Of a stretch of DNA of 38,230 nucleotides, positions 1 through 38,230 are shown piece after piece; position 1 is the stretch's first letter; every line of letters starts with the position of its first letter. Both the position numbers and the translations under genes were made by a program. The stretch is taken from positions 1 to 38,230 of IMG/VR virus record IMGVR_UViG_3300045988_172120. One strand, written 5' to 3'. The notes under the pieces are model-generated. The model was given only the letters and a program-made list of their open reading frames with translations. It was not told the origin of the DNA and ran no database searches. This stretch comes from a virus.

Positions 1-55
1 GGAAGTGCCTAGGAGGGGCACAAATAATGAGTGACATTTTCGATATTGTGGTGGA
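1..55. repeat. Left terminal inverted repeat, 55 bp, perfect reverse complement of 38176..38230
   Basis: Bases 1-55 (ggaagtgcctaggaggggcacaaataatgagtgacattttcgatattgtggtgga) equal the reverse complement of the last 55 bases. Identity stops at position 56 (a versus c). It contains the SD AGGAGG and the ATG at 27. Confidence 0.97.
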
Positions 56-593
56 AAACAGCCAAGACGACCTTGAAGTAATCAAGGGTTTCATGCTCAC
101 ATGTGGTGAAACCATCGCCCCAGAAGTGACCGAATCCATGGGGCGTCGCCCTAGCGGCATTGATCGGTGGGGTGGTGATGTTTTCGTCACCCAGGGCAAA
201 CTGTCCCTGTCGGTGAATGTGCTATATGACTTCCCATGGGGCTCCACCGATGCTAACAATCACCCGGTTGTGATCGAAGCCACACTACGTGAGGAAAACC
301 CCAGCGAGATTGTTGTGCTAGGATCAATTCTGCTGAATGACCAGCGCGACATGGATACGATCGAATGGTTGTTCGATGGTTTGGACTGGAACCCCCAATC
401 ACAAATCAAGTTCATTCGCAAGTCCGCACGCAACGCGCGTATCGAATACGTGTGCGAAACCCTCAATCTTTGGCAGATGGAAGCCCGCTGGGAAAACCAA
501 ACTCTAGGGGAAAAAGCGCGTACACACTACCGCCGGGCATACCTGGCCAAAAAAGGTGAGCTCACAGAACTACTCGAAAATGATGTGATGTAA
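27..593 (+). CDS. Hypothetical protein (left end gene, N-terminus MSDIFDIVV shared with right end gene)
   Basis: 188-aa ORF with SD AGGAGG 8 nt upstream of the ATG. The first 9 codons lie inside the ITR. No motif recognised. Confidence 0.8.
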   Translation: MSDIFDIVVENSQDDLEVIKGFMLTCGETIAPEVTESMGRRPSGIDRWGGDVFVTQGKLSLSVNVLYDFPWGSTDANNHPVVIEATLREENPSEIVVLGSILLNDQRDMDTIEWLFDGLDWNPQSQIKFIRKSARNARIEYVCETLNLWQMEARWENQTLGEKARTHYRRAYLAKKGELTELLENDVM

Positions 594-609
594 AACACGG
601 CGTGGGGGT

Positions 610-639
610 TTGACGCCGGGGCAAGCCACACTGTATAAT
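610..639 (+). promoter_or_regulatory. Sigma-70/SigA-like promoter TTGACG-N18-TATAAT
   Basis: ttgacg at 610..615 and tataat at 634..639, in the gap between the 27..593 and 709..1194 genes. It is homologous to the cassette at 9327..9422. Confidence 0.65.
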
Positions 640-664
640 AGGGGCATAGGGTAAAGCAGAAAAG

Positions 665-683
665 ACCAACCAAAAGGGTTGGT
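665..683 (+). promoter_or_regulatory. Conserved 5-prime leader stem-loop (accaacc-aaaag-ggttggt)
   Basis: 7-bp stem read directly. The leader 666..711 aligns with 9381..9425 over ~45 nt, including the SD and ATG. Confidence 0.55.
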
Positions 684-708
684 GCCCTAAGGTTCAAGGA
701 GGACCACC

Positions 709-1194
709 ATGCAAGCACAGTACCAAAATCAGGCACCCGCCACCATCGAGGGCCTGATCCGTAAGGTTTTTGAGGGCGAAGACTTCTACAGCTTTTCGGT
801 TGTGTATGAGGATTCCCCCGCGGTTGATGTTTTCGGCTATGGGGCCTTTGAAAAGCAAATCGGCGAGGGCTTGAATGCTGGCGTGTCGTTTGAAACCGGT
901 ATCGACTACACCGACGCCCTAGATCACCTGACTGGCCGTTTCGCCCTCAGCATTGAAGGGCAGCGCTGGGGTGATTACGTACACTACGAATGGTTCGTGT
1001 CCACGAAGCCGGGCGATGAGGAAATGCAAGATTTGCTGCGCTTGTTCCCCAAGGCTGAGGAATGCCTGAAAATCGCTGCAGCCCAGGTTCATAGCGCTAT
1101 CCTGGAATACCCCGAGGATTACACCGATGCGGAGGTGGCCCATGCGAAAGTGATGCTGGAAGCCCTCGACCCCAACGGTGACCTGGACTACTAA
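709..1194 (+). CDS. Hypothetical protein, arm paralog family A
   Basis: 161-aa ORF with SD AAGGAGG. It shares motifs with the 37408..37854 and 36495..37013 products (TIEGLIRKVFE / TMETLVKSIFE; YTDAEVAHAKVMLE / YTQAEVAEIGKQNLE). Confidence 0.85.
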   Translation: MQAQYQNQAPATIEGLIRKVFEGEDFYSFSVVYEDSPAVDVFGYGAFEKQIGEGLNAGVSFETGIDYTDALDHLTGRFALSIEGQRWGDYVHYEWFVSTKPGDEEMQDLLRLFPKAEECLKIAAAQVHSAILEYPEDYTDAEVAHAKVMLEALDPNGDLDY

Positions 1195-1258
1195 AAACAA
1201 TTTTCGGAACGGGGGTGGCCAATGGTTGCCCCCGAACCGGAAAAGTGAGGATAACACT

Positions 1259-1750
1259 ATGGTTACAATCCCAGAAATTGAGCAGCGCCTAGCCGATTAT
1301 GTGATCCGTGACCCACGGCAGTTCATGCCTTCGGATTATGATTTGCGTGGTGTTGCGGAAATGATTGCCGACACAAGCCTTGAAGACGGCGACCTGCACA
1401 ATCCCGATTGGGTGAAAGCGGTGAAACCCCTGCTCCAATCACATTTTGCGAAGATCAACATTTTTGATTTGGATTGGGAGTTTGTTCAGCACGGCGATGA
1501 TGTGATGCTGGTTGCGGTTTTCCACAGCCTGTGGGGGGATCAGGATATTGTAGTTGACCGGTGGGGCGATATTCATACCCGTATCGGTGCAGATTTTAAG
1601 CCAAGCCGACTGATGTGGTCTGAGGAGTACCATTCCCATGGTGACCATTTTGATGAGATTTTGGTCACATCGTGGCGGTTCATGGTTGACCGCCTGCGTG
1701 ACCGGCTTGAGGAGCATATTGAGCAGAATAATATTGGTGGAGGTGCATAA
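1259..1750 (+). CDS. Hypothetical protein
   Basis: The ORF track gives 1178..1750. I trimmed it to the in-frame ATG at 1259, which is preceded by the SD-like GTGAGGA. Product is acidic and W-rich. Confidence 0.7.
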   Translation: MVTIPEIEQRLADYVIRDPRQFMPSDYDLRGVAEMIADTSLEDGDLHNPDWVKAVKPLLQSHFAKINIFDLDWEFVQHGDDVMLVAVFHSLWGDQDIVVDRWGDIHTRIGADFKPSRLMWSEEYHSHGDHFDEILVTSWRFMVDRLRDRLEEHIEQNNIGGGA

Positions 1751-1751
1751 A

Positions 1752-2387
1752 ATGTCAAGTGTTGAAGACCGGTTCCCGCTACCGGAAAAGTGGTTTAATG
1801 ATTTCGATGATTTGGTGGAGGAACAAATCCGCCTCATCATTGGTGATGATGTGAAGTACATTTCCGAAAGCGCTTTGGAGCAGTTTCTTGCTGCCAAGCC
1901 GGTTAAGGGTGATGGGCTTCACATTGGCCTGAAGGAAAGCGTGCGTGGCGATTATCGGAAGTTTTTGCAGATGCTTGACGCTTGCGATATTCGTAATCTG
2001 CATTTGCCTATCAATAATGATGTTGATGTCCATGAATATAATCGAACATTTTATGCGAATAATGAAAATGTTTATGATGCGTTGGCCACTAGTTATTATG
2101 AGCTAGAATGGCCTGGTGGGTCAACCGTGTGGGTTGATATGAGCTATGACACGGGTTCGGGCGAATCGCGGTTCCTACTGTTTGGTGATAAGTTCGGGCC
2201 TGGTGATAGCCGGGTGCATGATGTTCGGTTGGATACCGACCGCCACCCCAATCATGCGGTTTTGTTGGATAAGATCTTCCCAGGGTGGCGCGAACAAATG
2301 TTCGATCCGTTCGCGAAAGGTTGGGAGAAGCAGATTGCGGAATGGCGTGCTGAAGACGAAGCCGAGGAAGAGAAAGAAGAAGTTTAA
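1752..2387 (+). CDS. Hypothetical protein, C-terminal region paralogous to the 33784..34362 product
   Basis: In-frame ATG at 1752 preceded by GGTGGAGGTG, 1 nt after the upstream stop. The C-terminus AVLLDKIFPGWREQMFDPFAKGWEK matches ALLDMIIPGWRDVLAEFDAKCEK in the right-arm protein. Confidence 0.75.
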   Translation: MSSVEDRFPLPEKWFNDFDDLVEEQIRLIIGDDVKYISESALEQFLAAKPVKGDGLHIGLKESVRGDYRKFLQMLDACDIRNLHLPINNDVDVHEYNRTFYANNENVYDALATSYYELEWPGGSTVWVDMSYDTGSGESRFLLFGDKFGPGDSRVHDVRLDTDRHPNHAVLLDKIFPGWREQMFDPFAKGWEKQIAEWRAEDEAEEEKEEV

Positions 2388-2393
2388 CGGTTA

Positions 2394-2420
2394 GCCCCCT
2401 ATTATGGGGGTGGGGTTTGG
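2394..2420 (+). terminator. Weak hairpin (ccccc-tattat-ggggg) after the 1752..2387 gene
   Basis: 5-bp GC stem at 2395..2399 / 2406..2410, followed by only a short T run (gggtttgggg). Confidence 0.3.
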
Positions 2421-2484
2421 GGCCAGGGCAGGCAACACTATTGGGGGTAACATTTTCAGAAAGGAAGAATCGTGGCAATGATGT

Positions 2485-3030
2485 GTGGTGAAAATGATTA
2501 ACTTTTTCAGGAAGGCAAACAGCAACCTTCGGCACTCGGGCCTAGGGGCCTATGTGAACACCTTCATATTCGCAGTAGAAGGCCACCTTGAAAAGAGAGA
2601 GTACAATGATGTGATCCGCAATTTAATGACACGGCGAGATTGGGAAGGGGATACTATGCGCAACCAGAAGTTTACACATGATTTCGCCTGTGAGGTATTG
2701 GCCCCGTTGCTGGCTGTAGCGGTTGAGCAAAATTCACTCTTTGATGCGTGTAGGCCAAAACCCCCAGAATATAGTACGATCCGCGAAATGTATTCCTGGA
2801 TTTTTGAAACCGTGCAAAAGTATTGCAAAAAGTATGGGCTTGATTACGAAAAACTGCTTGCCGAAGTCAGGAGGCAAACCCCGCTAGGTGATGACGGTTT
2901 CATCTCCCCCGGCTACCATATCAGCACCTGTAGGTATAATAGTGCTCTGTCTGGCGGGTTTTTCTTAGACTGCCCTAAAATAGATTTTAGGGACTGCAAG
3001 GATTCAGGGGTACGGCATGTTAGTCTCTGA
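2485..3030 (+). CDS. Hypothetical protein
   Basis: 181-aa ORF. Start is uncertain (GTG 2485 or ATG 2494). No motif recognised. The region looks more AT-rich by eye than its neighbours. Confidence 0.6.
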   Translation: MVKMINFFRKANSNLRHSGLGAYVNTFIFAVEGHLEKREYNDVIRNLMTRRDWEGDTMRNQKFTHDFACEVLAPLLAVAVEQNSLFDACRPKPPEYSTIREMYSWIFETVQKYCKKYGLDYEKLLAEVRRQTPLGDDGFISPGYHISTCRYNSALSGGFFLDCPKIDFRDCKDSGVRHVSL

Positions 3031-3097
3031 GATTGTTGCACTGGTTTGCGGAATGATTGTTACTATTGTGTTCCTTTGGGATAGCCGCAGGTGACCC

Positions 3098-3496
3098 ATG
3101 CTACTCCATGATAAGATTGTTTGGTACGATAAAGTTTTACGGCACCACGCTGTCCGTATGCTTTCCGGTTTTTATAGCCGTGATGGTTGGGCACACGTGT
3201 CACGGGTGTATGGTGTGGACAATGAGCTACTGAAACTCTTAACAAAACCTAAGTCCATGACAGTTGAAGAGAATAAAATGATTCTTGACAGCATGGTGTA
3301 TGCCGCAAGGGAGCTTGCAAGGTTTCACATGTTGCACATGTCGGACGGCTGCAGTCTGCGGTGGTACGCCAAGCAGTTCAGTGTTTACGGAAAACCCTGC
3401 AAAGATGGTCTAGGGAGAGATTGTGAGATATTCGTCATTAAGTCACGAAAGCCGGGCGGGCTGGTTAAAGCTAAGAAAATCGTACTTGACCGCTAG
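3098..3496 (+). CDS. Hypothetical protein
   Basis: 132-aa ORF with ATG preceded by GCAGGTG. Its last 74 nt overlap the next gene in another frame. Confidence 0.55.
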   Translation: MLLHDKIVWYDKVLRHHAVRMLSGFYSRDGWAHVSRVYGVDNELLKLLTKPKSMTVEENKMILDSMVYAARELARFHMLHMSDGCSLRWYAKQFSVYGKPCKDGLGRDCEIFVIKSRKPGGLVKAKKIVLDR

Positions 3497-4073
3497 CGAA
3501 ATGGGCAAGCTCGGCCCGAAAGCCGTCAAGGCCATGGTGAACCTCGGTGAGGAAAAATGGGGCGACACACCCCCCTTCCGGGGGAACGAATACACGGAGT
3601 GGGGCAACATTCGGGAACCGGTTATTGTGGGAAAACTATTGGAGGCGTGGATTCCGGTTGAACATAACACAAACCTTTTAGTGTCCACAACCCACCCGCT
3701 GTTTGCTGCCACACCCGACGGCTTGATTCCCGGCAAGAATGCTACGGTGCAGATTAAAACCGCCGGCACGAAGCGTTTCTTTGATGATGTGGCGCACATG
3801 CCGAAGAATTACATGCGTCAATGCCAATGGGAAATGCTTATTACCGATGCGGAAAAGTGTTTGTTCGTGGTTGAGGAAAGGTTGGAGTCGTTCGATGGTT
3901 TCCAGCCCGGTAGGATCACCACCATGACCGTACCCCGTGACGATAAACTTATCGGCGCCCTGGTGGAAACGGGCATGCGGTTTGTGAACCTGGTTTTGGA
4001 CGGCACCATCAACCACCCCCACAATGAGGCGTTCAGGCGGTTCAAAGCGGAAGCTGAGTTTTTCTATAAGTGA
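3423..4073 (+). CDS. YqaJ / lambda-exonuclease-like recombination exonuclease (PD-(D/E)XK fold)
   Basis: N-terminal GWLKLRKSYLTASEMGKL, then NIREPVIV, HPLFAATPDG and VQIKT match the YqaJ viral recombinase pattern. GTG start is preceded by GGGAGAG. Confidence 0.75.
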   Translation: MRYSSLSHESRAGWLKLRKSYLTASEMGKLGPKAVKAMVNLGEEKWGDTPPFRGNEYTEWGNIREPVIVGKLLEAWIPVEHNTNLLVSTTHPLFAATPDGLIPGKNATVQIKTAGTKRFFDDVAHMPKNYMRQCQWEMLITDAEKCLFVVEERLESFDGFQPGRITTMTVPRDDKLIGALVETGMRFVNLVLDGTINHPHNEAFRRFKAEAEFFYK

Positions 4074-4087
4074 GACACGAAAAATAA

Positions 4088-4117
4088 CCCCCGGTATAAA
4101 AGCCGGGGGTGTTTTTA
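4088..4117. terminator. Bidirectional intrinsic terminator where the two arms converge
   Basis: Stem cccccgg (4088..4094) / ccggggg (4103..4109) with an 8-nt loop. It is followed by tgttttt on the plus strand and a T-rich run on the minus strand, between convergent stops at 4073 and 4144. Confidence 0.85.
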
Positions 4118-4143
4118 TATGCGCCATTAATGTCACTGTTATG

Positions 4144-4515
4144 TTATTGGTCGGCGTCAAGGGTGCTGTTGATCTCACGAAGCTGTTTTACTTGCACATT
4201 TATCAGCTCATCATCGGGTATATCATTCGCCCTATGTATACTCAGCAGTCTATCTATCACGCTTATAGCGCGCTCCAGTGCCCTGTGCAAGCGTGACGCT
4301 ATATCCTCGATAGCGTGACGCCTGTCGCGTTCCTCATCAATGCGCTTCTCCAATATGTTTACTTGGTCTGATAGGCTGGTGATGCGTTGGTCCATGCGTT
4401 CGATTTCGCTTTTTCTAAGGTTCTGGTTATCGGTTTTAGCTTTCATCCATGCTGCTATTAGTGCGGTGACTGCGGTGGCTAGGGCTGCGCTTAGCGCCGT
4501 TAATTCGGCTATCAT
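4144..4515 (-). CDS. Membrane-anchored coiled-coil protein, last gene of the lysis cassette
   Basis: Trimmed to the internal ATG at 4515 (SD GAAAGG). The N-terminal hydrophobic helix MIAELTALSAALATAVTALIAAWM is followed by a charged heptad-like region. Its position is downstream of the holin. Confidence 0.7.
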   Translation of the reverse strand: MIAELTALSAALATAVTALIAAWMKAKTDNQNLRKSEIERMDQRITSLSDQVNILEKRIDEERDRRHAIEDIASRLHRALERAISVIDRLLSIHRANDIPDDELINVQVKQLREINSTLDADQ

Positions 4516-4539
4516 ATGTTCTACCTTTCGGGTATTATG

Positions 4540-4567
4540 AAAAGCCCCAACCCATATAGGCTGGGGC
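4540..4567 (-). terminator. Hairpin plus T run after the holin gene
   Basis: Minus sense reads gcccca-N12-tggggc then ttttcat. The stem is at 4544..4549 / 4562..4567. Confidence 0.5.
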
Positions 4568-4586
4568 AATCATCACTGCTCAAATA

Positions 4587-4958
4587 CTACTTTTCCGGTG
4601 CCTCAATCACCGCGGGGGCAACAACCCGATTATGGGACTTACCCGCCTCCGTATCATCAATGATGTTGAACAGCTCATCATTGATTTTGTCCACCACACT
4701 ATCGGTCACACCGTTAGGGGTGCGAGACACACCCAACACTGTGAGAGCACTAAGAATGATCGGGACGATCTGCTCCGTGTAGGCAGGCAGGTTAGTGTGG
4801 TGCGCGAACACACCAGTCAGCACCACCGCCACAATCAGCAGGGCGCTACCGAAAGCCGCGGTCACCGTGTTAGCCTTACGCTTACTTAAGGATTGCCTAG
4901 CAGCAATACTACGCAAGGCCTGGTTGAGCACGTCCGCGGTTTGATTATTGAAAGCCAT
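4587..4958 (-). CDS. Holin (two predicted transmembrane helices)
   Basis: 123 aa with hydrophobic stretches AAFGSALLIVAVVLTGVF and IVPIILSALTVLGV and a charged C-terminus. It lies immediately downstream of the endolysin. SD is GGAAGGGGA. Confidence 0.75.
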   Translation of the reverse strand: MAFNNQTADVLNQALRSIAARQSLSKRKANTVTAAFGSALLIVAVVLTGVFAHHTNLPAYTEQIVPIILSALTVLGVSRTPNGVTDSVVDKINDELFNIIDDTEAGKSHNRVVAPAVIEAPEK

Positions 4959-4973
4959 AAACTTTCCCCTTCC

Positions 4974-6488
4974 TTACCGAATCCGGTTGGCAATGTTTTG
5001 CAGAAGATCATTCTGCTTTTCTGTGAGTTCGATAAGCTTATCCAGCTTATCCCCATTACGCTGGGCAGACTCCATACCCATGAATGCGTGCGCGTTGGTG
5101 TTGATGATGAAGTCACGTAAAGTGCCTTCCCATTCGCTACCAGGCACCCGCGATTTAAAGCGTGCGTCTAAAACACCCATAAGCTCCCCTTTCCCAAAAG
5201 GTGGGTTATCAATATATTTCTGAACATTTGCACGGAACTCGTCCATATCCATCATGTGGCCAGCAACACCGTCACCCGCGCCGGGGTCCCACTTGCCCTG
5301 CGCATAATATGAGTACTCCCAGTGGGCAATACACCGGCTGGAATCCAAACCCAAATACCACAGCAATGCCGCTACAATCCTGTGGTAGGTGTCCAGCATA
5401 TTATCCGGCCACGGTGAAACCCCGTCCGACTGGGGTTCAATACCGATCATATACGGGTTAGCGTTATCGGTCGGCAAGCCGGGGTACGATCCCCGACCCA
5501 AATGCCAGGCCACACCAGCCCCACAAATCGTGGCGGTATAGGGGGGCGTGCGGCTTAAATGAATCTGAGAAGACAAGCCGTTTTCAAGTCCGGGGTTCCG
5601 CGCAATATATTCCGCAGAAGTATTATTAGCACCCGTGTGGTGCACCGCCACACCCCAAATCTTCGTGAAGTCACCCATGCCCCACTCTCGCCAACCATCA
5701 AGTTCTTGCACGTCAACGCCGAAAGCGCGTAAAACTTCGGGCATGAACAGGGGGTCGCCGTAGTGGTTGGGGTTGGGCTGTATCGGCATAATATCGGCTT
5801 CCATGTGTTCCTCTGTGTCCGGCATTTCTTCGGTCATGGGTTGCGTCAGTTGCGTATGCGGGGTACCACTGGCGTTCGTTTGCCCCCACTCATGCCATAG
5901 GATTTCATTAACGTCACACTGTACGCCACCCACTGTTACGGTCCCGATTTTTTGGAACAGGACGGCTTCTGGGGCTAGCTCACCCCCGCTCCATGCTGCG
6001 GTCTGCCAAGCCAAGAAATGCCCCTCGCCACAATCGGCAATCACACCGTCCTCAACAGCCCACGATATTACACGCGAATGCCCATATATTCCGGTGCGAG
6101 ACACACCCAGAATATCGTTCACCCCACGGAAGTATTCAACACCGAAACTATTCCACTCGCTGAGAGAAATATTATAATCCACGGCGAAGAAGCATGCAGC
6201 ATCACCGCGCCCTAGACTTTGCAAATGCTGCAAAACCGCGGTAGCATCCGATACCCCACCAGCGTAGCCACGCTTGATATCCGAGTCGTGTTCCTTCCCG
6301 TACTGATACACGAAAGCTATTGACAAGCCGTTACGGTAGAAGTCGTCAAGCTCGTTTTTACCAATCGGCTTGCCCCGCATCCACGCTTCCCGTGGTTGGG
6401 ATACGTACCGCACAGCACCCATATGACCAGCGTTTTTAACATCGGCGGCGCTTGGAACACCAGCCGAATAGTCAATAATTGTTGACAA
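4974..6488 (-). CDS. lysA: Modular endolysin (N-terminal Rv2525c/GH25-like glycosidase domain, central amidase_2/PGRP domain, C-terminal putative wall-binding domain)
   Basis: The N-terminus (IDYSAGVPSAADVKNAGHMGAVRYVS ... FFAVDYN) resembles the DUF1906 glycoside-hydrolase-like domain. The centre (VAVHHTGANNTSAEY ... IGIEPQSDG) resembles an N-acetylmuramoyl-L-alanine amidase. Apparent TTG start at 6488 with an in-frame stop just upstream. Confidence 0.85.
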   Translation of the reverse strand: MSTIIDYSAGVPSAADVKNAGHMGAVRYVSQPREAWMRGKPIGKNELDDFYRNGLSIAFVYQYGKEHDSDIKRGYAGGVSDATAVLQHLQSLGRGDAACFFAVDYNISLSEWNSFGVEYFRGVNDILGVSRTGIYGHSRVISWAVEDGVIADCGEGHFLAWQTAAWSGGELAPEAVLFQKIGTVTVGGVQCDVNEILWHEWGQTNASGTPHTQLTQPMTEEMPDTEEHMEADIMPIQPNPNHYGDPLFMPEVLRAFGVDVQELDGWREWGMGDFTKIWGVAVHHTGANNTSAEYIARNPGLENGLSSQIHLSRTPPYTATICGAGVAWHLGRGSYPGLPTDNANPYMIGIEPQSDGVSPWPDNMLDTYHRIVAALLWYLGLDSSRCIAHWEYSYYAQGKWDPGAGDGVAGHMMDMDEFRANVQKYIDNPPFGKGELMGVLDARFKSRVPGSEWEGTLRDFIINTNAHAFMGMESAQRNGDKLDKLIELTEKQNDLLQNIANRIR

Positions 6489-6503
6489 TCACATCACCCC
6501 TAA

Positions 6504-7424
6504 TCAGTCATCTGTTGCCTTGAAAAATAGGTAGCACTTACCATTCTTAATATTGTGGGGGTCGCCAGTCCACCCGGTGGCGAAGCATTTCCAAAACTCG
6601 TCGGACCGCAGCGAAAGCCCTGTATTGCTGTATGTTTCCCCCGTGTCAGCATCCTGTAGCACCACTATCATCCTGCCCCACGGGTGTTTTTTCTTAGCTT
6701 TGCAATCCACAGTGAGTGTCGGCTGGTCATCAATTTTGCCGTTGGGGTCGATAACCACCTCATATTTTGTATTCATTGACCCCATATTGGGGTGCTTGAA
6801 TTCAAAATCGTACACCAGGTCAACCCCAAATTTTGATTTCATGTACGCTTCCAGGGCGGTTAGGTTAGCCCCTGCGCGTTTCCGCTCATCGACGATGCGT
6901 AGCCACGTGTCGGATTGGTGTTTTAGCAGCTTTTCGTTGCGGTTAAGAATGTCCTTAGAAATTTTGATTTTCCGCACCACGCCGGTGGGGGTTGCTACGA
7001 ACTCTACCCCGGACACTTTTGCCTCACGAAACATTCCAGGCCCCACCATCACATCAACCACATCACCAGGGATAACATCAACGCCAGGGTTTGTGTTGCC
7101 AACCTCCAGGCCCTCAATATCCCGGGTGAAAGTAGTGGTCATCTCATTAGCCTTCTCCGCCCCATCAATCACCTGCGCAATATCCGTCACCCCGGCCGGA
7201 ATATTAATACTAATATCCGACTTAAGAAAAGCCTGAATAAACAAGCCGTTACCCAAATCATTCTTAAACGCATACACATAGACGGAACGTTTCCGCTGGT
7301 CCTCCGACAACGATGCTCCATCGGGGTAGGTTACCGACCATGCCCCATACAGGCGTGTAGCCGTGGGGTAGGTGACAACAAACTCCATACTATTAGGTGT
7401 AACAATTTTATTCACCTTAGGCAT
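6504..7424 (-). CDS. Minor tail protein (candidate receptor-binding protein)
   Basis: Trimmed to the internal ATG at 7424, which overlaps the upstream stop (ATGCCTAA). It is the last of three genes after the tape measure. No motif recognised. Confidence 0.65.
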   Translation of the reverse strand: MPKVNKIVTPNSMEFVVTYPTATRLYGAWSVTYPDGASLSEDQRKRSVYVYAFKNDLGNGLFIQAFLKSDISINIPAGVTDIAQVIDGAEKANEMTTTFTRDIEGLEVGNTNPGVDVIPGDVVDVMVGPGMFREAKVSGVEFVATPTGVVRKIKISKDILNRNEKLLKHQSDTWLRIVDERKRAGANLTALEAYMKSKFGVDLVYDFEFKHPNMGSMNTKYEVVIDPNGKIDDQPTLTVDCKAKKKHPWGRMIVVLQDADTGETYSNTGLSLRSDEFWKCFATGWTGDPHNIKNGKCYLFFKATDD

Positions 7425-8319
7425 TTTTAGCTTCCTCCCCCTGTGCAACAAAAATGTATGGCACCGGGAAAACCGTTCCCACCTGTGTCCTGCCCCACAC
7501 GCTAGCATCCAGTGTTTCACACGGGTACGCTACCCTTAGAAACAGGTTAATGTTAGCAAACTCCAGGGTGTCTTTGATAGTGTTAGCCATTGTATCCTCC
7601 GCCAGGGTGATGGTGATCTCGGGTGAGTCCAACCCGGTTTCCACCCTACGGCAAAGGAATGGTGGCCCGGTGTACCCCTCGGTCCGGTAGATGAGGGAAG
7701 CGTTTTCCTGGATTAGTTTAGAGATAATCTCATCGGCCTTACCTATCACGGTGAACCCATCAACCTGGTTGCCCGCCCTGAAAAGTTTCAGAGTGTATTC
7801 GCGGGGCGACTTCAGTGTGTGAATGTTGTCTTTAATCTTTTCATTCTTCGTCTCTAACCAGGCTTTACGGTCCGAAACGGCGGGCATTTCACCCAACACG
7901 TCCAAGTATTCCAGGGCCTCAATCGTGACCGAATCAAACCGGTTGTTTCGGGTAGTGAACTTCGCCATTTTGATCTTGCCGAACCAGCGCACATCCCCCG
8001 CATCAATAAGCAGCATCTTTAAATCATCGTGTATTAGCGCACCCAAAATTTGGATATCATGCTCGCTACCCTGCGGGGGCGCGAATACTCCGGCTAGCGA
8101 ATACTCCACATCCAACCCGACACGGACACTAGCGGTACCGGGCTGGTTGTGCTGAAAATTATAGGAAAGATCACTATAATTATCCAGCTCGATCATGGGT
8201 TGCCCGCTGCCGTTGCATAAGCAAACATACACACCACGTTGCTTAATCACGTTGGCGCGCAGGTCAAACCATTTTTTCCACGCCTCCGTGGTGTTCATCG
8301 TGTCAAGTATGCCCGGCAT
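7417..8319 (-). CDS. Minor tail protein (Tal-like position)
   Basis: 300-aa ORF, second gene of the tail-tip block. The call rests on synteny only. Confidence 0.6.
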   Translation of the reverse strand: MPGILDTMNTTEAWKKWFDLRANVIKQRGVYVCLCNGSGQPMIELDNYSDLSYNFQHNQPGTASVRVGLDVEYSLAGVFAPPQGSEHDIQILGALIHDDLKMLLIDAGDVRWFGKIKMAKFTTRNNRFDSVTIEALEYLDVLGEMPAVSDRKAWLETKNEKIKDNIHTLKSPREYTLKLFRAGNQVDGFTVIGKADEIISKLIQENASLIYRTEGYTGPPFLCRRVETGLDSPEITITLAEDTMANTIKDTLEFANINLFLRVAYPCETLDASVWGRTQVGTVFPVPYIFVAQGEEAKNA

Positions 8320-8323
8320 TTTC

Positions 8324-9244
8324 TTAGCTTTCGTCCCCGCCCCATGGTACTAGGTGGCGTTCCTCATAATCAATCCTATAATCGAAATTGCTTGTGAAAC
8401 GCACCACATCACCGGCAGGGGACTGCAAATGTGCATAATCCTGTGGTTTCAGCTGGTCAGTGATGGACTTAAGCACCTTACTATTGTTGACGCGACGGAC
8501 CACGGGGGCCTCGCCAAGATCAAAATTGATGTAAGCAAGCCCCTCGAAGTCGCCCGCTTCTAAGTTTAGGTTAAGAAAATCCAGGCCGGTGCCCCGCCAC
8601 ACCCCCTTAAAGCTGGTGGTCTCATTCCGTTTAAACCTGAGAGTCACCTTAAAACCGGAAGGAATGTTTGACTTGCGCTGCAAACTTGCCACCTGCACCC
8701 CATTTTGCAATTCGGGGTAGACGCTTTTGACCTGGAACCAAAAACCGTCATCGCAGATCACGGGCACAATAACCTTGATGTTATCCTGGTCAAAATCTTG
8801 CGGGTCGGGGTTCGGCCACGCTAGTGAACGGGTGGTGCGCAAACGGGCACTATAGGTTGCGTTGTAGAACTTGTCCTGGCCTTGCCCGTAGGAGGTGAAT
8901 GGTGCGTTATGCACGTTGAAAATGAAAGTCTTACCTGGCTGCACCTCATTCTGTAATCTTAAGAAAGAGTTATACAAACTTGCTTCCCCGGTTTTGGCGG
9001 GGCCGGGGGTGACAGATAGAGTAAACTCCCCGGTGAACGGCTTAATACGGTGCCCTTTATACACCTGCCCCACACCGTTCACGGGGTTTTGCACAGTGTC
9101 CTCAAACTCACCAACCATGCCCTGGACACTTTCCTCAACTAGGGTGTAGTCACGGTACACCCAGTTGCTGTTATCTGGATTGTTTTTCATGTGTTCAAGA
9201 TCAGGCTTAATAAAGCCTAAGGAACCAAGAGATGCCGATAGCAT
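8324..9244 (-). CDS. Minor tail protein (distal tail protein position)
   Basis: 306-aa ORF with SD GGAGG, first structural gene after the tape measure region. The call rests on synteny only. Confidence 0.6.
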   Translation of the reverse strand: MLSASLGSLGFIKPDLEHMKNNPDNSNWVYRDYTLVEESVQGMVGEFEDTVQNPVNGVGQVYKGHRIKPFTGEFTLSVTPGPAKTGEASLYNSFLRLQNEVQPGKTFIFNVHNAPFTSYGQGQDKFYNATYSARLRTTRSLAWPNPDPQDFDQDNIKVIVPVICDDGFWFQVKSVYPELQNGVQVASLQRKSNIPSGFKVTLRFKRNETTSFKGVWRGTGLDFLNLNLEAGDFEGLAYINFDLGEAPVVRRVNNSKVLKSITDQLKPQDYAHLQSPAGDVVRFTSNFDYRIDYEERHLVPWGGDES

Positions 9245-9278
9245 GCTACCTCCAAATGTTAGGGGTCAAAACTAAACT

Positions 9279-9300
9279 ATTATAGCATGCTACAACAAAA
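9279..9300 (-). promoter_or_regulatory. Late-type extended -10 promoter TTTTGTTGTAGCATGCTATAAT
   Basis: Minus-sense TGCTATAAT (extended -10), 34 nt upstream of the ATG at 9244. It is 20/22 identical to 22682..22703 and 17/22 identical to 26895..26916. Confidence 0.65.
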
Positions 9301-9326
9301 CGTGTTCAGCACCACACGGGCACGGT

Positions 9327-9831: not shown

Positions 9832-9906
9832 TGCCCACCAGGGTAAACGCTGTTTAAAGCGTCTAGCGTGGCCATAGGTGGGGCCAACGCCTAGAATGAA
9901 CAATCA
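9832..9906. repeat. Conserved ~75-bp intergenic element, copy A
   Basis: Ungapped alignment with 24038..24112 gives 56/75 identities by manual count. The first 26 nt (2 mismatches) and the last 14 nt (identical) are the most conserved. Confidence 0.8.
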
Positions 9907-22674: not shown

Positions 22675-22681
22675 GCGGAAT

Positions 22682-22703
22682 ATTATAACATACTACAACA
22701 AAA
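22682..22703 (-). promoter_or_regulatory. Late-type extended -10 promoter TTTTGTTGTAGTATGTTATAAT, 7 nt from the protease ATG
   Basis: The TGTTATAAT box ends 7 nt before the ATG at 22674, a leaderless geometry. The motif overlaps the last portal codons. Confidence 0.6.
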
Positions 22704-24006
22704 CATCACCCTCGCCATTGTCAATATTATTAGTTTCAGTGTCACCGGACCAAGGGATTTGCATTTTACGGTGAAAATATTTCCGGGTCACGGGATCGTT
22801 CGGATCAACCAAACCCGCCGCAACGGCGTTAGGCCACATCTCAGGTTTTAGTTCACTGTTTGATGCGATGGGGTCGCAGTTGATGAGGGGTACGGGGCCT
22901 TTGTAATCGGGGAATGCTAGGCTTATCAAATCCTCAACAATATATTTTTGCGCTGTCAACGCCACCCAGTCCGCAATGGTTTGCAACGATTGCGTGAAGA
23001 ATGATGATTGTGTGTCCGCCAAAGCGTATGATCCGCCACCATCATCGAGGTTTAGAAAGTGTGCTAGCACGCTTTTGGCGATAGCATCATTGTATGATTT
23101 GATAGCGCCGGAAACATCCGGTAGTTGGCCGGAAACCCCTTTGAACTCGAATGACGCGCCGGGCGGGATTGACACCCCAGCAAAATCATCGGCACGGATA
23201 GCCTCAACTAATTCTTGGCCCCTATCAATCTCGTCTTGCAAATCCTCCGGGCGGCCCAACAGGGTTTCTTTCGATGCGGTGTAGACGGGTATGCCCATGC
23301 CGTTTCTCTCAAGGGTTTTTAATTGTAGCCGTTGCAGTTCGTCTTTGAGTCGCCAAGGTCGATAGCAGGGGCGTAGAATGCTTGTGCCCATCCAGTCGCT
23401 GTTTGTGGGCCTGTAGACGTATCCTACCAGGCTATCAACGGGGATCACGGGGGCAAGGTCGGTGCCGTCTTCCAATCGTACACTCTTTTGCTGAATGGAT
23501 TCTAAGTTACCGTTCTCATCTACATTGATTTTTGAGATGGTGTCAGCCCACCTTGGGGCGAGTTTCACCAGGTGCCAACCGGTTTCGTCTTGTTCGTACA
23601 CTTGTTCAAAGTATGCGAAGCCGAACACCAACGCCAATAGCGCTTGTGGCAGGTGTTCTTGCCATGAAACCCCGCTAGAAAGCCTGGTCACGGGGGGTGA
23701 GTCCACACCAAGAATGGGTAGCTTAAGGTCTTGCGCTACCCGATTCACAACCTCAGGATCAGCCCCGTTCGAATCAATGTGCCACTTGGCACGCAGCACC
23801 GGAAGCGTGCAAGCAGAGTACGCCATTGAGACTTGTTCATCTTCCTTAAGCATTTTATTATAAACCGCGATGTTACGAGGGAACCGTAAGTCGTGGTTCG
23901 TGTCGTTCATCCGCTGGTACCCATGATACCCCCCTGTGGGGGTGGCGGTGCCGATTTCCTTTGTTCGTTTCGGCTTGAACTTTGCAAAGAATTTTCGTAG
24001 CCCCAT
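22693..24006 (-). CDS. Portal protein
   Basis: 437 aa, positioned between the large terminase and the protease. Confidence 0.8.
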   Translation of the reverse strand: MGLRKFFAKFKPKRTKEIGTATPTGGYHGYQRMNDTNHDLRFPRNIAVYNKMLKEDEQVSMAYSACTLPVLRAKWHIDSNGADPEVVNRVAQDLKLPILGVDSPPVTRLSSGVSWQEHLPQALLALVFGFAYFEQVYEQDETGWHLVKLAPRWADTISKINVDENGNLESIQQKSVRLEDGTDLAPVIPVDSLVGYVYRPTNSDWMGTSILRPCYRPWRLKDELQRLQLKTLERNGMGIPVYTASKETLLGRPEDLQDEIDRGQELVEAIRADDFAGVSIPPGASFEFKGVSGQLPDVSGAIKSYNDAIAKSVLAHFLNLDDGGGSYALADTQSSFFTQSLQTIADWVALTAQKYIVEDLISLAFPDYKGPVPLINCDPIASNSELKPEMWPNAVAAGLVDPNDPVTRKYFHRKMQIPWSGDTETNNIDNGEGDVLL

Positions 24007-24037: not shown

Positions 24038-24112
24038 TGCCCACCAGGGCAAACGCCGTTTAAGCCATGTAGCAGCCCCATAGACGGGGTGAGCATTAAG
24101 AATGAACAATCA
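24038..24112. repeat. Conserved ~75-bp intergenic element, copy B
   Basis: Lies in the 159-bp untranslated gap between the TerL stop (24166) and the portal start (24006). It aligns with 9832..9906. Confidence 0.8.
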
Positions 24113-26132: not shown

Positions 26133-26846
26133 CTAGCCCCAAAAACCTGAACCGCCACCACCATCAGGGGCGACAGTCGCGGGTTTCTTACGCATACTCT
26201 CATAGTATTTATCAACACCAAACATGAATGATTTCGGGCGCAGGCGAGCACACCGCTCACGAACAATCGCCTCACCAGGATCAATACGCTTGAACTCGCA
26301 CCCGGCTTCCGCATAGCGCAACAACGCTGATTCGCTGGGGGCGGAGTGAATAATATACACATCCGTCTCGGACTGTTTCAAAGCTTCCTTAATAAGTAGC
26401 AGTCTAGCTTTCCTCACCAGTCTTGCCACCACTTGCGGGTAATCATGATTACCGATAGGGTAGCCGCCAATAAGGTTGCATAGATGGTCATAGTCAATCC
26501 TTATATCCCCGGGTTTCGCATGCTCACTAACCCACGTGGTTTTACCCCCACACGGGGGGCCCATCACAACAATCTTCCGAACCGAACCGGTAGTAACCTC
26601 ACCCCCGCCACGCTGACTGTTGCAAGTGAAATGCAACAAGCGTTCCGGTAGCTCACCATTCTTTGCCCCATGAAAATTTAGGTGGTCAGCAGCCAACGGC
26701 TTACCGTCAAAATTTTTCACAGCAGAAGCATACATTGGCCTGCCACACCACGGGCACGGGGTACCATCACGCAAACGAAGCAACAAACCCTCACGGGCAC
26801 GCTGGTGCATCTTACCATAGCCCCTAGCGCTAGCTGATAAACCCAT
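26133..26846 (-). CDS. HNH endonuclease fused to a P-loop NTPase/kinase-like domain
   Basis: N-terminus: GYGKMHQRARE ... CPWCGRPM ... ADHLNFH ... LLHFTCNSQRGGG (HNH). C-terminus: VVMGPPCGGKTTW (Walker A) ... DVYIIHS (Walker B-like). Confidence 0.75.
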   Translation of the reverse strand: MGLSASARGYGKMHQRAREGLLLRLRDGTPCPWCGRPMYASAVKNFDGKPLAADHLNFHGAKNGELPERLLHFTCNSQRGGGEVTTGSVRKIVVMGPPCGGKTTWVSEHAKPGDIRIDYDHLCNLIGGYPIGNHDYPQVVARLVRKARLLLIKEALKQSETDVYIIHSAPSESALLRYAEAGCEFKRIDPGEAIVRERCARLRPKSFMFGVDKYYESMRKKPATVAPDGGGGSGFWG

Positions 26847-26852
26847 AAAAAT

Positions 26853-26894
26853 ATTCCCCTAAAAAGCGTTTAAACAAACAATTTTCAGGGGAAT
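26853..26894 (-). promoter_or_regulatory. 8-bp inverted repeat attcccct / aggggaat forming a terminator-like hairpin in front of the HNH gene
   Basis: Minus sense reads ATTCCCCT-N26-AGGGGAAT followed by atttttATG. The left arm starts directly after the TATAAT of the promoter at 26895..26916. Confidence 0.5.
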
Positions 26895-26916
26895 ATTATA
26901 TCACGTCACAACAAAA
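26895..26916 (-). promoter_or_regulatory. Late-type extended -10 promoter TTTTGTTGTGACGTGATATAAT
   Basis: TGATATAAT extended -10 box. It shares the TTTTGTTGT box and TATAATATTCC with 22682..22703 and lies upstream of the HNH/terminase genes. Confidence 0.55.
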
Positions 26917-26918
26917 TA

Positions 26919-31854: not shown

Positions 31855-32233
31855 TTCCCATCTTATCGTTGTTGCCTTCATCTGCCAGAAGGCTATCAAT
31901 CTTCTTGCGCCGTTCCTCACGCCACAACCGTACACGCTCACGCATCTTCGGGTCACGCCCCAAATCAGCCATCACATGACCACAATGGGCTACGATATCC
32001 CCAGGCCTTGGGGGCGAATCAGTGGCACGCGCCAAACCAAACCAGCGACCAAACGCCATATCATACACCGGCTCCGGGTAGTCACCAATAGCATTCAATG
32101 ATTGATACCACGTGTCAATCAGAATCTTATACTCCTTGGCGTTTTGGGGCCGTTTGAAACCCCACACCGCCACGATCATTTTCTCCAATAATTTTTCGGT
32201 AGCTTCTGGACTGATACTCACCGCAGACACCAC
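31838..32233 (-). CDS. Putative helicase loader (SPP1 G39P-like)
   Basis: The pattern ...KLLEKMIVAVWGF ... LIDTWYQSLNAIGDYPEPVYDMA ... PPRPGDIVA resembles the G39P loader family. It lies between the organiser-like gene and ssb. GTG start is uncertain. Confidence 0.45.
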   Translation of the reverse strand: MVSAVSISPEATEKLLEKMIVAVWGFKRPQNAKEYKILIDTWYQSLNAIGDYPEPVYDMAFGRWFGLARATDSPPRPGDIVAHCGHVMADLGRDPKMRERVRLWREERRKKIDSLLADEGNNDKMGNDDES

Positions 32234-33520: not shown

Positions 33521-33532
33521 AATTACCTTTCC

Positions 33533-33688
33533 TTACATGAAGTGAGCTACAGCCCACACCAGGGCTGCGATAGCCGCAACAACAATAGTAAGCTTCACGA
33601 TCACGGCAAACACCATCAGGCCAACCCACAGTCGCTGTTGACGTTTCATTTCCGCGTCGAACTCTTCAAACGAATGATCCAATTTCAT
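33533..33688 (-). CDS. Small membrane protein (51 aa, one TM helix)
   Basis: Trimmed to the ATG at 33688 (SD GAGGAAA). The hydrophobic core is LWVGLMVFAVIVKLTIVVAAIAALVWAV. Confidence 0.55.
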   Translation of the reverse strand: MKLDHSFEEFDAEMKRQQRLWVGLMVFAVIVKLTIVVAAIAALVWAVAHFM

Positions 33689-33783
33689 GTGTTTTTCCTC
33701 ACATTTTAGGGACGGGGGACAGCCAACACGACAGTATCGTGTCGACTTCACCCACCCCCACAACAGTGGGGCAGGGCTTTCTC

Positions 33784-34362: not shown

Positions 34363-34369
34363 GGTTCTT

Positions 34370-34398: not shown

Positions 34399-34399
34399 A

Positions 34400-35586: not shown

Positions 35587-35592
35587 GCCCCT

Positions 35593-35601: not shown

Positions 35602-35659
35602 ATCCCCGGCCTAGACCGAAAGTCTAAACCGGGAAACGGGTGGTGATGTTGGTCACATG

Positions 35660-37856: not shown

Positions 37857-38204
37857 CTAAAACTCTCCTTCCTCATCATAGCAGTGGTCTTCCAGCCATT
37901 CCATGGCAGCATCCTCAAACATGCTCTTGATTAACCATAGTTTGCCACCCAAAATTTTGTCGATCTGCTCACGCTCATCCCATTTTTCCAACTCCAGAAT
38001 TTCGCCGCTGGGAAGATGCTCGATGGTCAGGCCAAGATCGTATTCATCGAGGATTCCGGTTGCCCAGATGAGAATTTCGTAATCCCCGACCGTGCGAGTC
38101 CAGGATAAGCGTATCCCTTCCTCGATGTCAGTTTCCACTGGTGCGGTTTCCCAGCCGTCCATGGTGAGGTTGACGTCCACCACAATATCGAAAATGTCAC
38201 TCAT
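37857..38204 (-). CDS. Hypothetical highly acidic protein (right end gene, N-terminus MSDIFDIVV shared with left end gene)
   Basis: 115-aa ORF. SD and the first 9 codons lie in the ITR. Roughly a quarter of residues are D/E by manual count. Confidence 0.8.
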   Translation of the reverse strand: MSDIFDIVVDVNLTMDGWETAPVETDIEEGIRLSWTRTVGDYEILIWATGILDEYDLGLTIEHLPSGEILELEKWDEREQIDKILGGKLWLIKSMFEDAAMEWLEDHCYDEEGEF

Positions 38205-38230
38205 TATTTGTGCCCCTCCTAGGCACTTCC
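38176..38230. repeat. Right terminal inverted repeat, partner of 1..55
   Basis: Read directly: tccaccacaatatcgaaaatgtcactcattatttgtgcccctcctaggcacttcc is the reverse complement of 1..55. Confidence 0.97.

What the first reader, a model, noticed from the sequence alone, without database searches (positions are those of the whole stretch)
1..55. Perfect 55-bp terminal inverted repeats that encode the ribosome-binding site and first 9 codons of both end genes
Bases 1..55 are the exact reverse complement of 38176..38230. Identity ends at position 56, inside codon 10 (GAA versus GAC). Each copy carries GGAAGTGCCTAGGAGGGGCACAAATA, then ATG AGT GAC ATT TTC GAT ATT GTG GTG GA. Two otherwise different genes (27..593 plus strand, 37857..38204 minus strand) therefore start identically and point inward. 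Only 26 nt separate each physical end from its start codon, so no promoter fits outside the genes. If the ends were joined, the junction would be a 110-bp perfect palindrome between divergent genes. ITRs in phages normally go with protein-primed replication (PolB plus terminal protein) or with hairpin telomeres (protelomerase). I can recognise neither here. The replication set is DnaB, loader, organiser and SSB, which points to use of the host replisome. Three readings remain open. (a) These are genuine telomeres of a new type for a siphovirus. (b) They are a palindromic junction or resolution site seen in a linearised form. (c) The contig is bounded by a longer inverted repeat. On reading (c), 55 is the default largest k-mer of SPAdes/metaSPAdes, so an assembly graph would clip any longer inverted repeat to exactly 55 bp. 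A missing segment could then hold the early promoters and any immunity or integration genes, which are absent here.
Basis: partly seen in the sequence, partly recalled or inferred. Interest (0 to 1): 0.85.

Follow-up and report, generated by a model that had tools for sequence, protein, structure and literature searches.

The report
Assembly-clipped stub of larger inverted repeat
The 55-bp "terminal inverted repeat" is real sequence, but its length and end position come from the assembler (55 is its word size); it is the inner tip of a longer inverted repeat, probably about 2.1 kb, and about 7 kb of this oral phage genome is missing from the contig.

Summary
Bases 1-55 are the exact reverse complement of 38176-38230, and identity ends in codon 10 of two otherwise unrelated genes. 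These are not genome ends. A MEGAHIT k=127 contig from run ERR589622 matches the window at every compared base (0 mismatches over 14,967 nt). It extends 72 nt further at each end and has a perfect 127-bp ITR. Logan k=31 contigs of the same run carry 30 nt of the repeat. In relatives the terminal repeat is 119, 127, 80 or 30 nt, tracking the assembler's k. So 55 reflects a k=55 graph edge, and reading (c) is right. Readings (a) telomeres and (b) a direct palindromic junction are refuted. Related contigs show what lies outside. A ~2.1-kb non-coding region (N) has outward promoter, leader and start codon at both ends. N adjoins the left gene, the right gene, and both ends of a ~2.7-kb segment (V: DNA methyltransferase plus ORFans). 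The best model is a ~45-kb circular map, U(38.1 kb)-N'-V-N, with plastid-like quadripartite layout. Two-fold copy number of full-length N is inferred, not shown. No PolB, terminal protein, protelomerase, integrase or invertase was found.

The parts
1..55 (+). Innermost 55 nt of the left copy of the large inverted repeat (b-end of region N): the 3' part of the 5' leader, the Shine-Dalgarno sequence, ATG and codons 2-9 plus 2 nt. The outer limit (position 1) is set by the assembler. The inner limit (55/56) is the true repeat boundary.
   Evidence: The k127 contig of the same genome extends 72 nt further out with 0 mismatches. Relatives carry at least 1.4-4 kb of N upstream of the homologous gene.
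38176..38230 (-). Innermost 55 nt of the right, inverted copy of the same repeat.
   Evidence: The same k127 contig extends 72 nt further at this end too. Relatives L009, L015 and L075 have 1.6-4.9 kb upstream of the right gene.
5..21 (+). Leader hairpin GUGCC-UAGGAGG-GGCAC, which displays the Shine-Dalgarno sequence in its loop. The mirror copy lies at 38210-38226 on the minus strand.
   Evidence: RNAalifold on 12 distinct leaders gave a 5-bp stem with three pairs changed on both sides, between two leader alleles (GUGCC/GGCAC versus GGGG/CCCC). This amounts to only two haplotypes, so support is modest.
27..593 (+). 'Left gene', 188 aa, an ORFan. It is the first gene of the 4.3-kb plus-strand early arm, which ends with a YqaJ-type exonuclease gene at 3423-4073.
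   Evidence: It is 84-93% conserved in 9 relatives and has no Pfam or PHROG match.
37857..38204 (-). 'Right gene', 115 aa, an ORFan. It is the first gene of the long minus-strand array (ERF, SSB, DnaB, RusA, terminase, head, tail, lysin).

Best explanation
SHOWN: The window is one edge of a de Bruijn assembly graph. That edge is the long unique segment (U, 38,120 nt) of a phage genome plus k=55 nt of a flanking inverted repeat at each end. The repeat's inner boundary (position 55/56, in codon 10 of both end genes) is real. Its outer boundary is only the assembler's word size. In this very genome the repeat is at least 127 bp and includes the -10 box of the promoter for both end genes. INFERRED from related contigs: The repeat is the whole ~2.1-kb non-coding region N. 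N carries an outward-facing sigma-70-type promoter, a structured leader, an RBS and a start codon at each of its two ends. It also carries two strong internal promoters and a highly conserved ~270-bp core. Two inverted copies of N separate U from a ~2.7-kb short unique segment V (genes A1 and A2, a 131-aa ORF, an N6/N4 DNA methyltransferase, gene B). This gives a ~45.1-kb circular map U-N'-V-N. The b-end promoter therefore drives both the left arm and the right early-to-late array. The a-end promoter drives both A1-A2 and B-methyltransferase. Recombination or gene conversion between the copies keeps them identical and lets the boundary creep into the first codons of the flanking genes. That is why two unrelated proteins begin with the same 9 residues. 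The phage's own ERF, YqaJ, RusA and SSB are available for this recombination. Physical virion ends are unknown and are not at the window's ends.
For: (1) Same genome, different k.
- ERZ964605 k127_79496 is 38,374 bp, which equals 38,230 + 2x72.
- It matches window 1-8593 and the reverse complement of 31857-38230 with 0 mismatches.
- It has a perfect 127-bp ITR.
- The Logan k31 contig of run ERR589622 starts at window position 26, carrying 30 nt of repeat.

(2) Across relatives, the distance from the contig end to the repeat's inner boundary follows the assembler rather than one fixed length.
- The distance is 98+29=127 for three k127 contigs and 90+29=119 for one k119 contig.
- It is 1+29=30 for a Logan contig and 51+29=80 for a JGI contig.
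- L018 and L002 overlap by 141 nt (k141).

(3) Where the two leaders differ within one contig, the exact repeat ends further upstream.
- This holds for 3300006317_000012 and 3300007654_000023.
- The contig end still lies about 80 nt beyond that point.

(4) All four junctions are seen contiguous with a long or full N.
- N-left gene: L001, L027, L032, L036.
- N-right gene: L009, L015, L075.
- N-B: L009, L032.
- N-A1: L044, L045, L046, L075.

(5) Single contigs hold a full N on one side of V and an inverted partial copy on the other.
- L044: 193 nt with one SNP.
- L045: 119 nt.
- L075: 123 nt.

(6) L044 starts exactly at the reverse complement of ...GTGGTGGA, the b-end boundary. L002 starts exactly at the ATG of A1/B. 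N is therefore bounded by branch points at both ends.

(7) Promoters sit at both ends of N: TTGACG-16-TATAAT on each outward strand.

(8) The first codons co-vary between the left and right genes within genomes. MSDIFDIVV, MENIFDIVV or MSNIFDIVV appear in both.

(9) No short N-b/N-a junction was seen in any of 10 contigs that extend more than 240 nt into N.
Against: The two-fold copy number of full-length N is not shown. No read depth, no long read and no single contig with two complete N copies was available. Every U-N-V contig comes from short-read assemblers, which cannot phase across 2.1 kb. The three observed combinations are (right,B) in L009, (left,B) in L032 and (right,A1) in L075. These could be true isomers or arbitrary graph paths. 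N and V were not recovered from the window's own sample; only 127 bp of N is proven there. Four contigs end inside N's conserved core, so a physical end or a hard-to-sequence C6T8 tract lies there, and the packaged form is unknown. No isolate genome or GenBank phage carries this family, so nothing is anchored experimentally.
Confidence: 0.85

Rival explanations
1. Genuine 55-bp telomeric ITRs of a linear genome, either protein-primed or with hairpin ends.
For: A perfect repeat sits exactly at both contig ends. ITRs occur in phi29-, PRD1- and Cp-1-type phages (established knowledge).
Against: The same genome extends at least 72 nt beyond both ends in another assembly. ITR length follows the assembler k in about 10 assemblies. 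Pfam found no PolB, terminal protein or protelomerase among all ORFs tested. The promoter for both end genes lies outside the window.
Confidence: 0.01
2. The two ends are joined directly in a circle, forming a 110-bp perfect palindrome between divergent genes (reading b).
For: A direct palindrome of at least 55 nt per arm would also yield a contig with k-length ITRs (graph reasoning).
Against: In the k127 contig the 72 nt outside position 1 read GTTCGCGGGTGGGGTGTGTATAATGAATGG...GGGGGCCG. This is not the reverse complement of the repeat. Relatives continue into 1.4-4.9 kb of N.
Confidence: 0.01
3. N is single-copy. The far ends of U and V carry only short partial copies of N's two ends (a few hundred bp), joined back-to-back. 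U and/or V invert by recombination at these short repeats.
For: Only 127-239 nt (b-end) and 119-193 nt (a-end) of a second copy are seen within any one contig. Both orientations of U and V relative to N occur.
Against: All 10 contigs that extend more than 240 nt from a U or V end gene show full-type N, and none shows a short b/a junction. Contig ends track k rather than a fixed short-repeat length. No site-specific recombinase was found.
Confidence: 0.09
4. There are two molecules that share N. One is a linear N-U-N' genome (~42.4 kb with 2.1-kb terminal inverted repeats). The other is a separate N'-V-N element. The U-N-V contigs would then be chimeras through N.
For: The graph topology alone cannot exclude this. 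Four contigs end inside N.
Against: The a-end of N carries a conserved promoter, RBS and ATG that only makes sense if it drives A1 or B. V co-occurs with this phage family wherever it was checked. The ends inside N scatter over about 150 nt in a homopolymer-rich tract rather than at N's a-end.
Confidence: 0.04

Closest known systems
De Bruijn-graph repeat-boundary contig ends (k-length 'ITR' on metagenomic viral contigs; CheckV ITR class)
   Same: The terminal repeat length equals the assembler k (55, 119, 127, or 30 for k31). The contig is a unique segment flanked by a collapsed inverted repeat. CheckV reports that only 33.2% of IMG/VR ITR contigs reach high quality (PMC8116208).
   Different: No difference. 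This is what the 55-bp limit is. The repeated sequence itself is real biology, not chimeric reads.
Plastid quadripartite genome (LSC-IR-SSC-IR)
   Same: It has two unique segments of unequal size separated by two identical inverted copies. The repeat boundary shifts between relatives: codon 10, -3, about -27 and about -62 at the b-end, and ATG or codon 4 at the a-end. The copies show concerted evolution. Both relative orientations are seen in assemblies.
   Different: N is non-coding (promoters and cis sites), not an rRNA operon. It is 2.1 kb rather than 10-25 kb. The organism is a tailed phage. Copy number and flip-flop isomers are not demonstrated here.
Class D herpesvirus genome (varicella-zoster: UL-IRS-US-TRS)
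   Same: Once circularised, the map has the same order: long unique, inverted repeat, short unique, inverted repeat. Both belong to Duplodnaviria (own knowledge).
   Different: In VZV the repeats encode genes and one copy is terminal in the virion. Here the termini are unknown, and no homology of the repeats is implied.
Phage P1 C-segment and Mu G-segment invertible regions
   Same: Inverted repeats run into coding sequence, so two alternative genes share an identical portion. In P1 a small unique segment is flanked by repeats of 0.6 kb (own knowledge).
   Different: Those systems share a constant N-terminal gene part outside the segment and use Cin/Gin serine invertases at crossover sites. 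Here no invertase was found. The repeat carries promoters and start codons, and all four flanking genes can be expressed at once, so no switching is required.
phi29/PRD1/Cp-1 protein-primed ITRs and N15-type hairpin telomeres
   Same: The only shared feature is an inverted repeat at both ends of the sequence record.
   Different: There is no PolB, terminal protein or protelomerase, and the ends are not physical.
Corynebacterium phage CL31 (MW582634), the closest characterised relative
   Same: TerL is 39.7% identical over 99% of its length. The overall layout is the same: a divergent early region, a short plus-strand arm, then lysis, tail, head, terminase and replication genes on the other strand. 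The genome is 45,061 bp, against about 45.1 kb predicted here.
   Different: CL31's divergent early region is a 13-nt gap with no annotated repeat. CL31 has cos ends with a 16-nt 3' overhang next to terS (PMC8002715). There is no nucleotide similarity.

Membership tests
Assembly artefact: k-limited inverted repeat at contig ends | Repeat length equals the assembler's largest k and changes when k changes | tested here: met
   The repeat is 55 nt in the window, 127 nt in the k127 contig of the same genome and 30 nt in the k31 Logan contig. In relatives it is 119 nt for k119 and 127 nt for k127.
Assembly artefact: k-limited inverted repeat at contig ends | Sequence continues beyond the contig end in other assemblies of the same or related genomes | tested here: met
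   There are 72 more nt at both ends in the same genome, and 1.4-4.9 kb in L001, L009, L015, L027, L032, L036 and L075.
Assembly artefact: k-limited inverted repeat at contig ends | Graph edges leave the terminal k-mer in the original assembly graph | not testable with these tools
   The window's own assembly graph and reads are not available.
Protein-primed linear phage genomes (phi29, PRD1, Cp-1) | Family B DNA polymerase and terminal protein genes | tested here: not met
   Pfam scans of 50 window ORFs and 7 V ORFs found neither. Replication and recombination genes are DnaB, SSB, ERF, RusA, YqaJ and an exonuclease.
Protein-primed linear phage genomes (phi29, PRD1, Cp-1) | ITRs lie at the physical ends of the virion DNA | tested here: not met
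   The ends are not physical, because the same genome continues past them.
Hairpin-telomere phages (N15, PY54, phiKO2) | Protelomerase gene and a telRL palindrome | tested here: not met
   No protelomerase domain was found. The junction is not a direct palindrome.
Quadripartite genome with a large inverted repeat (plastid-like, herpesvirus class D-like) | Both ends of each unique segment adjoin the same repeat sequence in opposite orientation | tested here: met
   Four junction types are each contiguous with at least 1.4 kb of N. In-contig inverted copies flank V (L044, L045, L075) and U (window, k127 contig).
Quadripartite genome with a large inverted repeat (plastid-like, herpesvirus class D-like) | The repeat is present twice per genome at full length (2x depth, or both copies on one molecule) | not testable with these tools
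   No read depth or long reads were available. Indirect support: one SNP between the two a-end copies in L044, and no short junction in 10 informative contigs.
Quadripartite genome with a large inverted repeat (plastid-like, herpesvirus class D-like) | Inversion isomers coexist | tested here: inconclusive
   The combinations (right,B) L009, (left,B) L032 and (right,A1) L075 are seen in different samples. Short-read assemblers cannot phase across N.
Site-specific invertible segments (Mu G, P1 C, Hin/Gin/Cin) | Serine or tyrosine recombinase encoded next to the segment | tested here: not met
   No recombinase domain was found in U or V.

The most novel reading that the evidence does not exclude
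A family of human-oral actinobacterial siphoviruses, seen in dozens of metagenomes but with no isolate, has a plastid- or varicellovirus-like quadripartite genome of about 45 kb. A 38.1-kb long unique segment and a 2.7-kb short unique segment are separated by two inverted copies of a 2.1-kb non-coding 'control region'. That region fires outward from both ends, so two promoter-leader-start-codon cassettes drive four different operons. The repeat boundaries migrate into coding sequence and give unrelated early proteins identical N-termini. The repeat may also hold the cos or ori core, and the phage's own ERF/YqaJ/RusA system could flip the segments into isomers.
Probability: 0.6. Interest if true: 0.55.

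Novelty: new variant of a known kind. Interest (0 to 1): 0.33.

Why it matters
There are two practical consequences.

**Database quality.** At least three contigs here carry such k-length inverted ends at both termini:
- the window itself;
- the same genome assembled as the k127 contig of ERZ964605;
- IMGVR_UViG_3300007654_000023.

Many more have a U end that stops at k. Tools that treat an ITR of 20 bp or more as a sign of a closed genome would call these contigs complete. In fact about 15% of the genome is missing, including all early promoters. An ITR whose length equals the assembler's k should be read as a repeat boundary.

**Biology.** The real structure behind the artefact is unusual for a tailed phage. 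It is a large non-coding inverted repeat that duplicates the early control region and drives four operons. Its boundaries expand and contract into the flanking genes. If confirmed with long reads, it would be a compact model for concerted evolution and possible flip-flop isomerisation in a phage. It would also explain why this abundant oral phage family never assembles into a closed circle.

Tried and rejected
- **GenBank phages.** Nucleotide searches of both 5-kb window ends found nothing. A protein search with the left gene found nothing.
- **PLSDB plasmids.** A protein search with the right gene found nothing.
- **GTDB genomes.** An exact 27-mer scan and a left-gene profile scan found no relative. 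There is therefore no prophage or isolate context.
- **Rfam on N.** No match at E<=1.
- **tRNAs in L001.** None found.
- **Pfam and PHROGs on the four operon-first genes and the V ORFans.** No families, except the methyltransferase.
- **Physical ends near terS.** 21 IMG/VR contigs run through the terS region with no common end, so no cos site could be placed there.
- **CL31 cos overhang.** CCCCACTCGGCCCACG is not found in the CL31 record, even with 2 mismatches. The comparison of N's core with CL31's end gave only a weak 15-nt match (E=0.05).
- **Read-depth evidence.** I tried to obtain it from SPAdes contig names. U, N and V contigs from one SPAdes assembly could not be retrieved.
- **Rejected models.** A direct palindromic junction and real telomeres are rejected. 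Site-specific inversion is rejected because no recombinase was found.

Full report
**Observation.** The window's first 55 bases are the exact reverse complement of its last 55. Each copy holds GGAAGTGCCTAGGAGGGGCACAAATA followed by ATG and codons 2-9 plus two bases. The copies diverge at position 56 (GAA versus GAC). ORFs 27..593(+) and 37857..38204(-) both begin MSDIFDIVV. BLASTP aligns only residues 1-10 of the two proteins. The next-best inverted repeat in the window is 37 nt at 70%. The description is accurate and cannot be chance.

**The ends are not genome ends.**
- An exact look-up of the left-gene protein returned MEGAHIT contig ERZ964605 ...k127_79496 (38,374 bp) from run ERR589622, a human oral metagenome.
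- Its left 8,665 nt and right 6,446 nt match the window with 0 mismatches over 8,593 and 6,374 compared bases.
- It starts 72 nt earlier and ends 72 nt later (38,374 = 38,230 + 144).
- Its two ends are identical for exactly 127 nt, which is its k.
- The Logan (k=31) contig of the same run begins at window position 26, so it carries 30 nt of the repeat.

The same rule holds in relatives. The right gene sits 98 nt from the end of three k127 contigs (98+29=127) and 90 nt from the end of a k119 contig (119). It sits 1 nt from the end of a Logan contig (30) and 51 nt from the end of a JGI contig (80). PKQM01003682.1 and PKQM01000275.1 overlap by 141 nt, the MEGAHIT maximum k. The '55' is thus the largest default k of SPAdes/metaSPAdes (established knowledge). 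The window is a graph edge that starts and ends on the same k-mer vertex in opposite orientation.

The base sequence outside position 1 is ...TATAATGAATGGTGTCCGG...GGTGGGGGCCG, not the reverse complement of the other end. A direct 110-bp palindromic junction is therefore excluded.

**What lies outside.** I call the missing non-coding region N and the missing unique segment V.
- IMG/VR contig 3300045988_139463 carries the identical 55-mer internally, preceded by 1.4 kb of non-coding DNA.
- PKQM01000275.1 (L002, 2,107 bp) is the whole region N. It begins exactly at a CAT (the ATG of a leftward gene) and ends inside the 55-mer.
- N has a TTGACG-16-TATAAT promoter pointing outward at each end, and two further strong minus-strand promoters inside. 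The scan found 6 promoter-like sites against 1.5 expected.
- N has no Rfam match.
- Alignment of six full N copies shows a highly conserved core at L002 463-729, with 84-94% invariant columns in its best 50-nt blocks.

Beyond N lies segment V, about 2.7 kb. It holds A1 (105 aa), A2 (~196 aa), a 131-aa ORF, an N6/N4 DNA methyltransferase (absent in some relatives) and B (131 aa). A1 and B point inward.

**Four junctions.** N is found contiguous with each of its four neighbours:
- the left gene (L001, L027, L032, L036; 1.4-4.0 kb);
- the right gene (L009, L015, L075; 1.6-4.9 kb);
- B (L009, L032);
- A1 (L044, L045, L046, L075; full 2.1 kb).

L044 begins exactly at the reverse complement of ...GTGGTGGA, the same inner boundary as window position 55. 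Single contigs carry a full N on the A1 side of V and an inverted partial copy on the B side. These are 193 nt with one SNP at offset 94 in L044, 119 nt in L045 and 123 nt in L075. L009 has an 80-nt perfect inverted repeat bounding V. A Logan V contig has a 30-nt ITR.

The simplest genome that uses every junction once is a circular map U-N'-V-N. Its size would be 38,120 + 2 x 2,146 + 2,687, about 45.1 kb. None of the 10 contigs that run more than 240 nt into N from an end gene shows a short b-end/a-end junction. This argues against a mere stub as the second copy.

I could not obtain read depth, long reads or a contig with two complete N copies. The two-fold copy number of full-length N is therefore inferred.

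**Boundary behaviour.** The inner boundary is not fixed.
- In the window, L004/L032 and L009/L030, it lies in codon 10.
- In 3300007654_000023 it lies at -3.
- In L045 it lies near -27.
- In 3300006317_000012 it lies near -62, just after the promoter.
- In each case the contig end lies about k beyond the local boundary.
- At the a-end the boundary is the ATG in L009, L044 and L045, but codon 4 (MFEN) in L047 and L075.

Within a genome the first codons of the left and right genes often co-vary; both are MSDIFDIVV, or both MENIFDIVV. In other genomes they differ at the DNA level yet keep the motif M-x-[DN]-I-F-[DE]-x-x-V. This pattern is what gene conversion between two copies, with repeat expansion and contraction, produces in plastid genomes (established knowledge; see PMC5430533).

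**Gene content.** U is a typical siphovirus genome.
- Plus arm: a YqaJ exonuclease.
- Minus strand: lysin (Rv2525c-like plus Amidase_2), tape measure, major capsid, ClpP-type protease, Mu-type portal, TerL, RusA, a metallophosphatase-type exonuclease, DnaB, glutaredoxin, SSB and ERF.
- No PolB, terminal protein, protelomerase, integrase or invertase was found in U or V (same calls).

The closest characterised phage is Corynebacterium phage CL31. Its TerL is 39.7% identical. CL31 has the same overall layout and a 45,061-bp genome, but no repeat at its divergent early region. It has cos ends with a 16-nt 3' overhang (PMC8002715). No relative exists in GenBank phages, PLSDB or GTDB genomes.

**Mechanism, with status of each step.**
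- Shown: the 55-bp limit is an assembly product. The repeat is at least 127 bp in this genome and contains the -10 box. The promoter, leader and RBS of both end genes are the same sequence.
- Inferred with good support: the repeat is the entire 2.1-kb N, present twice. Two promoter cassettes therefore drive four operons.
- Inferred: homologous recombination between the copies homogenises them and moves the boundaries. The phage's ERF, YqaJ, RusA and SSB are available for this.
- Open: whether isomers coexist. The combinations (right,B), (left,B) and (right,A1) are seen in different samples, but short-read assemblers choose paths through N arbitrarily.
- Open: where the virion ends lie. Four contigs stop within about 150 nt of each other in N's conserved, C6T8-containing core. 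No common end is seen near terS.

**Verdict.** Readings (a) and (b) are refuted. The missing DNA (about 6.9 kb, 15% of the genome) holds the early promoters but no recognisable immunity or integration genes. As a 'new telomere' the finding has no standing. The underlying large inverted repeat is a moderately interesting, still unproven, new variant of a known genome architecture. It is also a clear example of why k-length ITRs on viral contigs should not be taken as evidence of completeness (PMC8116208).

Noticed in passing
window 5-21 and 38210-38226; leaders in L001-L046: The Shine-Dalgarno sequence AGGAGG sits in the 7-nt loop of a 5-bp hairpin. Two leader alleles (GUGCC...GGCAC and GGGG...CCCC) keep the stem through three double changes. 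An outer helix UCCGG/CCGGG and a middle hairpin also recur. This may be a translational control element shared by both early operons.
   Followed up: partly
L002 463-729 (region N, outside the window); L009 3260-3412: This is the most conserved block of the 2.1-kb non-coding repeat (84-94% invariant columns in its best 50-nt blocks). It contains C6T8, two GCCCC(C)TGAAAC repeats and a perfect TTGACA-17-TATAAT promoter. Four independent contigs (L001, L015, L027, L036) end here within about 150 nt. The motif AAARGTTTTCGGCC is present in every N copy, and a similar 15-mer lies 22-36 nt from the right end of the CL31 record. It is a candidate cos or ori site, or simply hard to sequence.
   Followed up: partly
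L002 1567-1612: A 46-nt stretch of N is 91% identical to an unannotated intergenic stretch of Gordonia phage Daredevil (NC_048021.1, 3426-3471), upstream of an HNH endonuclease gene. It lies in a conserved part of N downstream of the internal promoter at L002 1719-1691. Folding that region as RNA gave z = -1.8.
   Followed up: partly
window 9278-9301, 22681-22704, 26894-26917: A 24-nt motif, TATTATA(G/A/T)CA...ACAACAAAA, occurs three times (79-100% identity). Each copy lies in a short gap between minus-strand genes. Its reverse complement contains TGCTATAAT. These may be middle or late promoters.
   Followed up: no
window 9832-9906 and 24038-24112: A 75-nt direct repeat (75% identity) lies in the gaps downstream of the tape-measure gene and between TerL and portal. 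Its function is unknown.
   Followed up: no
window 26850-26897: A near-perfect palindrome (22-nt arms, 86% complementary, 4-nt spacer) lies in the 72-nt gap upstream of gene 26133-26846 on the minus strand. It could be a terminator or an operator. It is about 740 nt upstream of the small-terminase start.
   Followed up: no
first codons of left gene, right gene, A1 and B (window 27-56, 38175-38204; L009 78-100; L047; L075): All operon-first genes start with a related peptide (M-[SET]-[DN]-I-F-[DE], or MFENVFD for A1). In some genomes A1 and B share MFEN. The motif persists even where the two DNA copies have diverged. This suggests selection on the first codons or residues, not only repeat creep.
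   Followed up: partly
L009 1636-2312 versus L044 3699-4373: The V-segment DNA methyltransferase is intact in L044, L047 and L070. It is split into two ORFs in L009 and L073, and absent in L032. It is a variable accessory gene inside the short unique segment.
   Followed up: no
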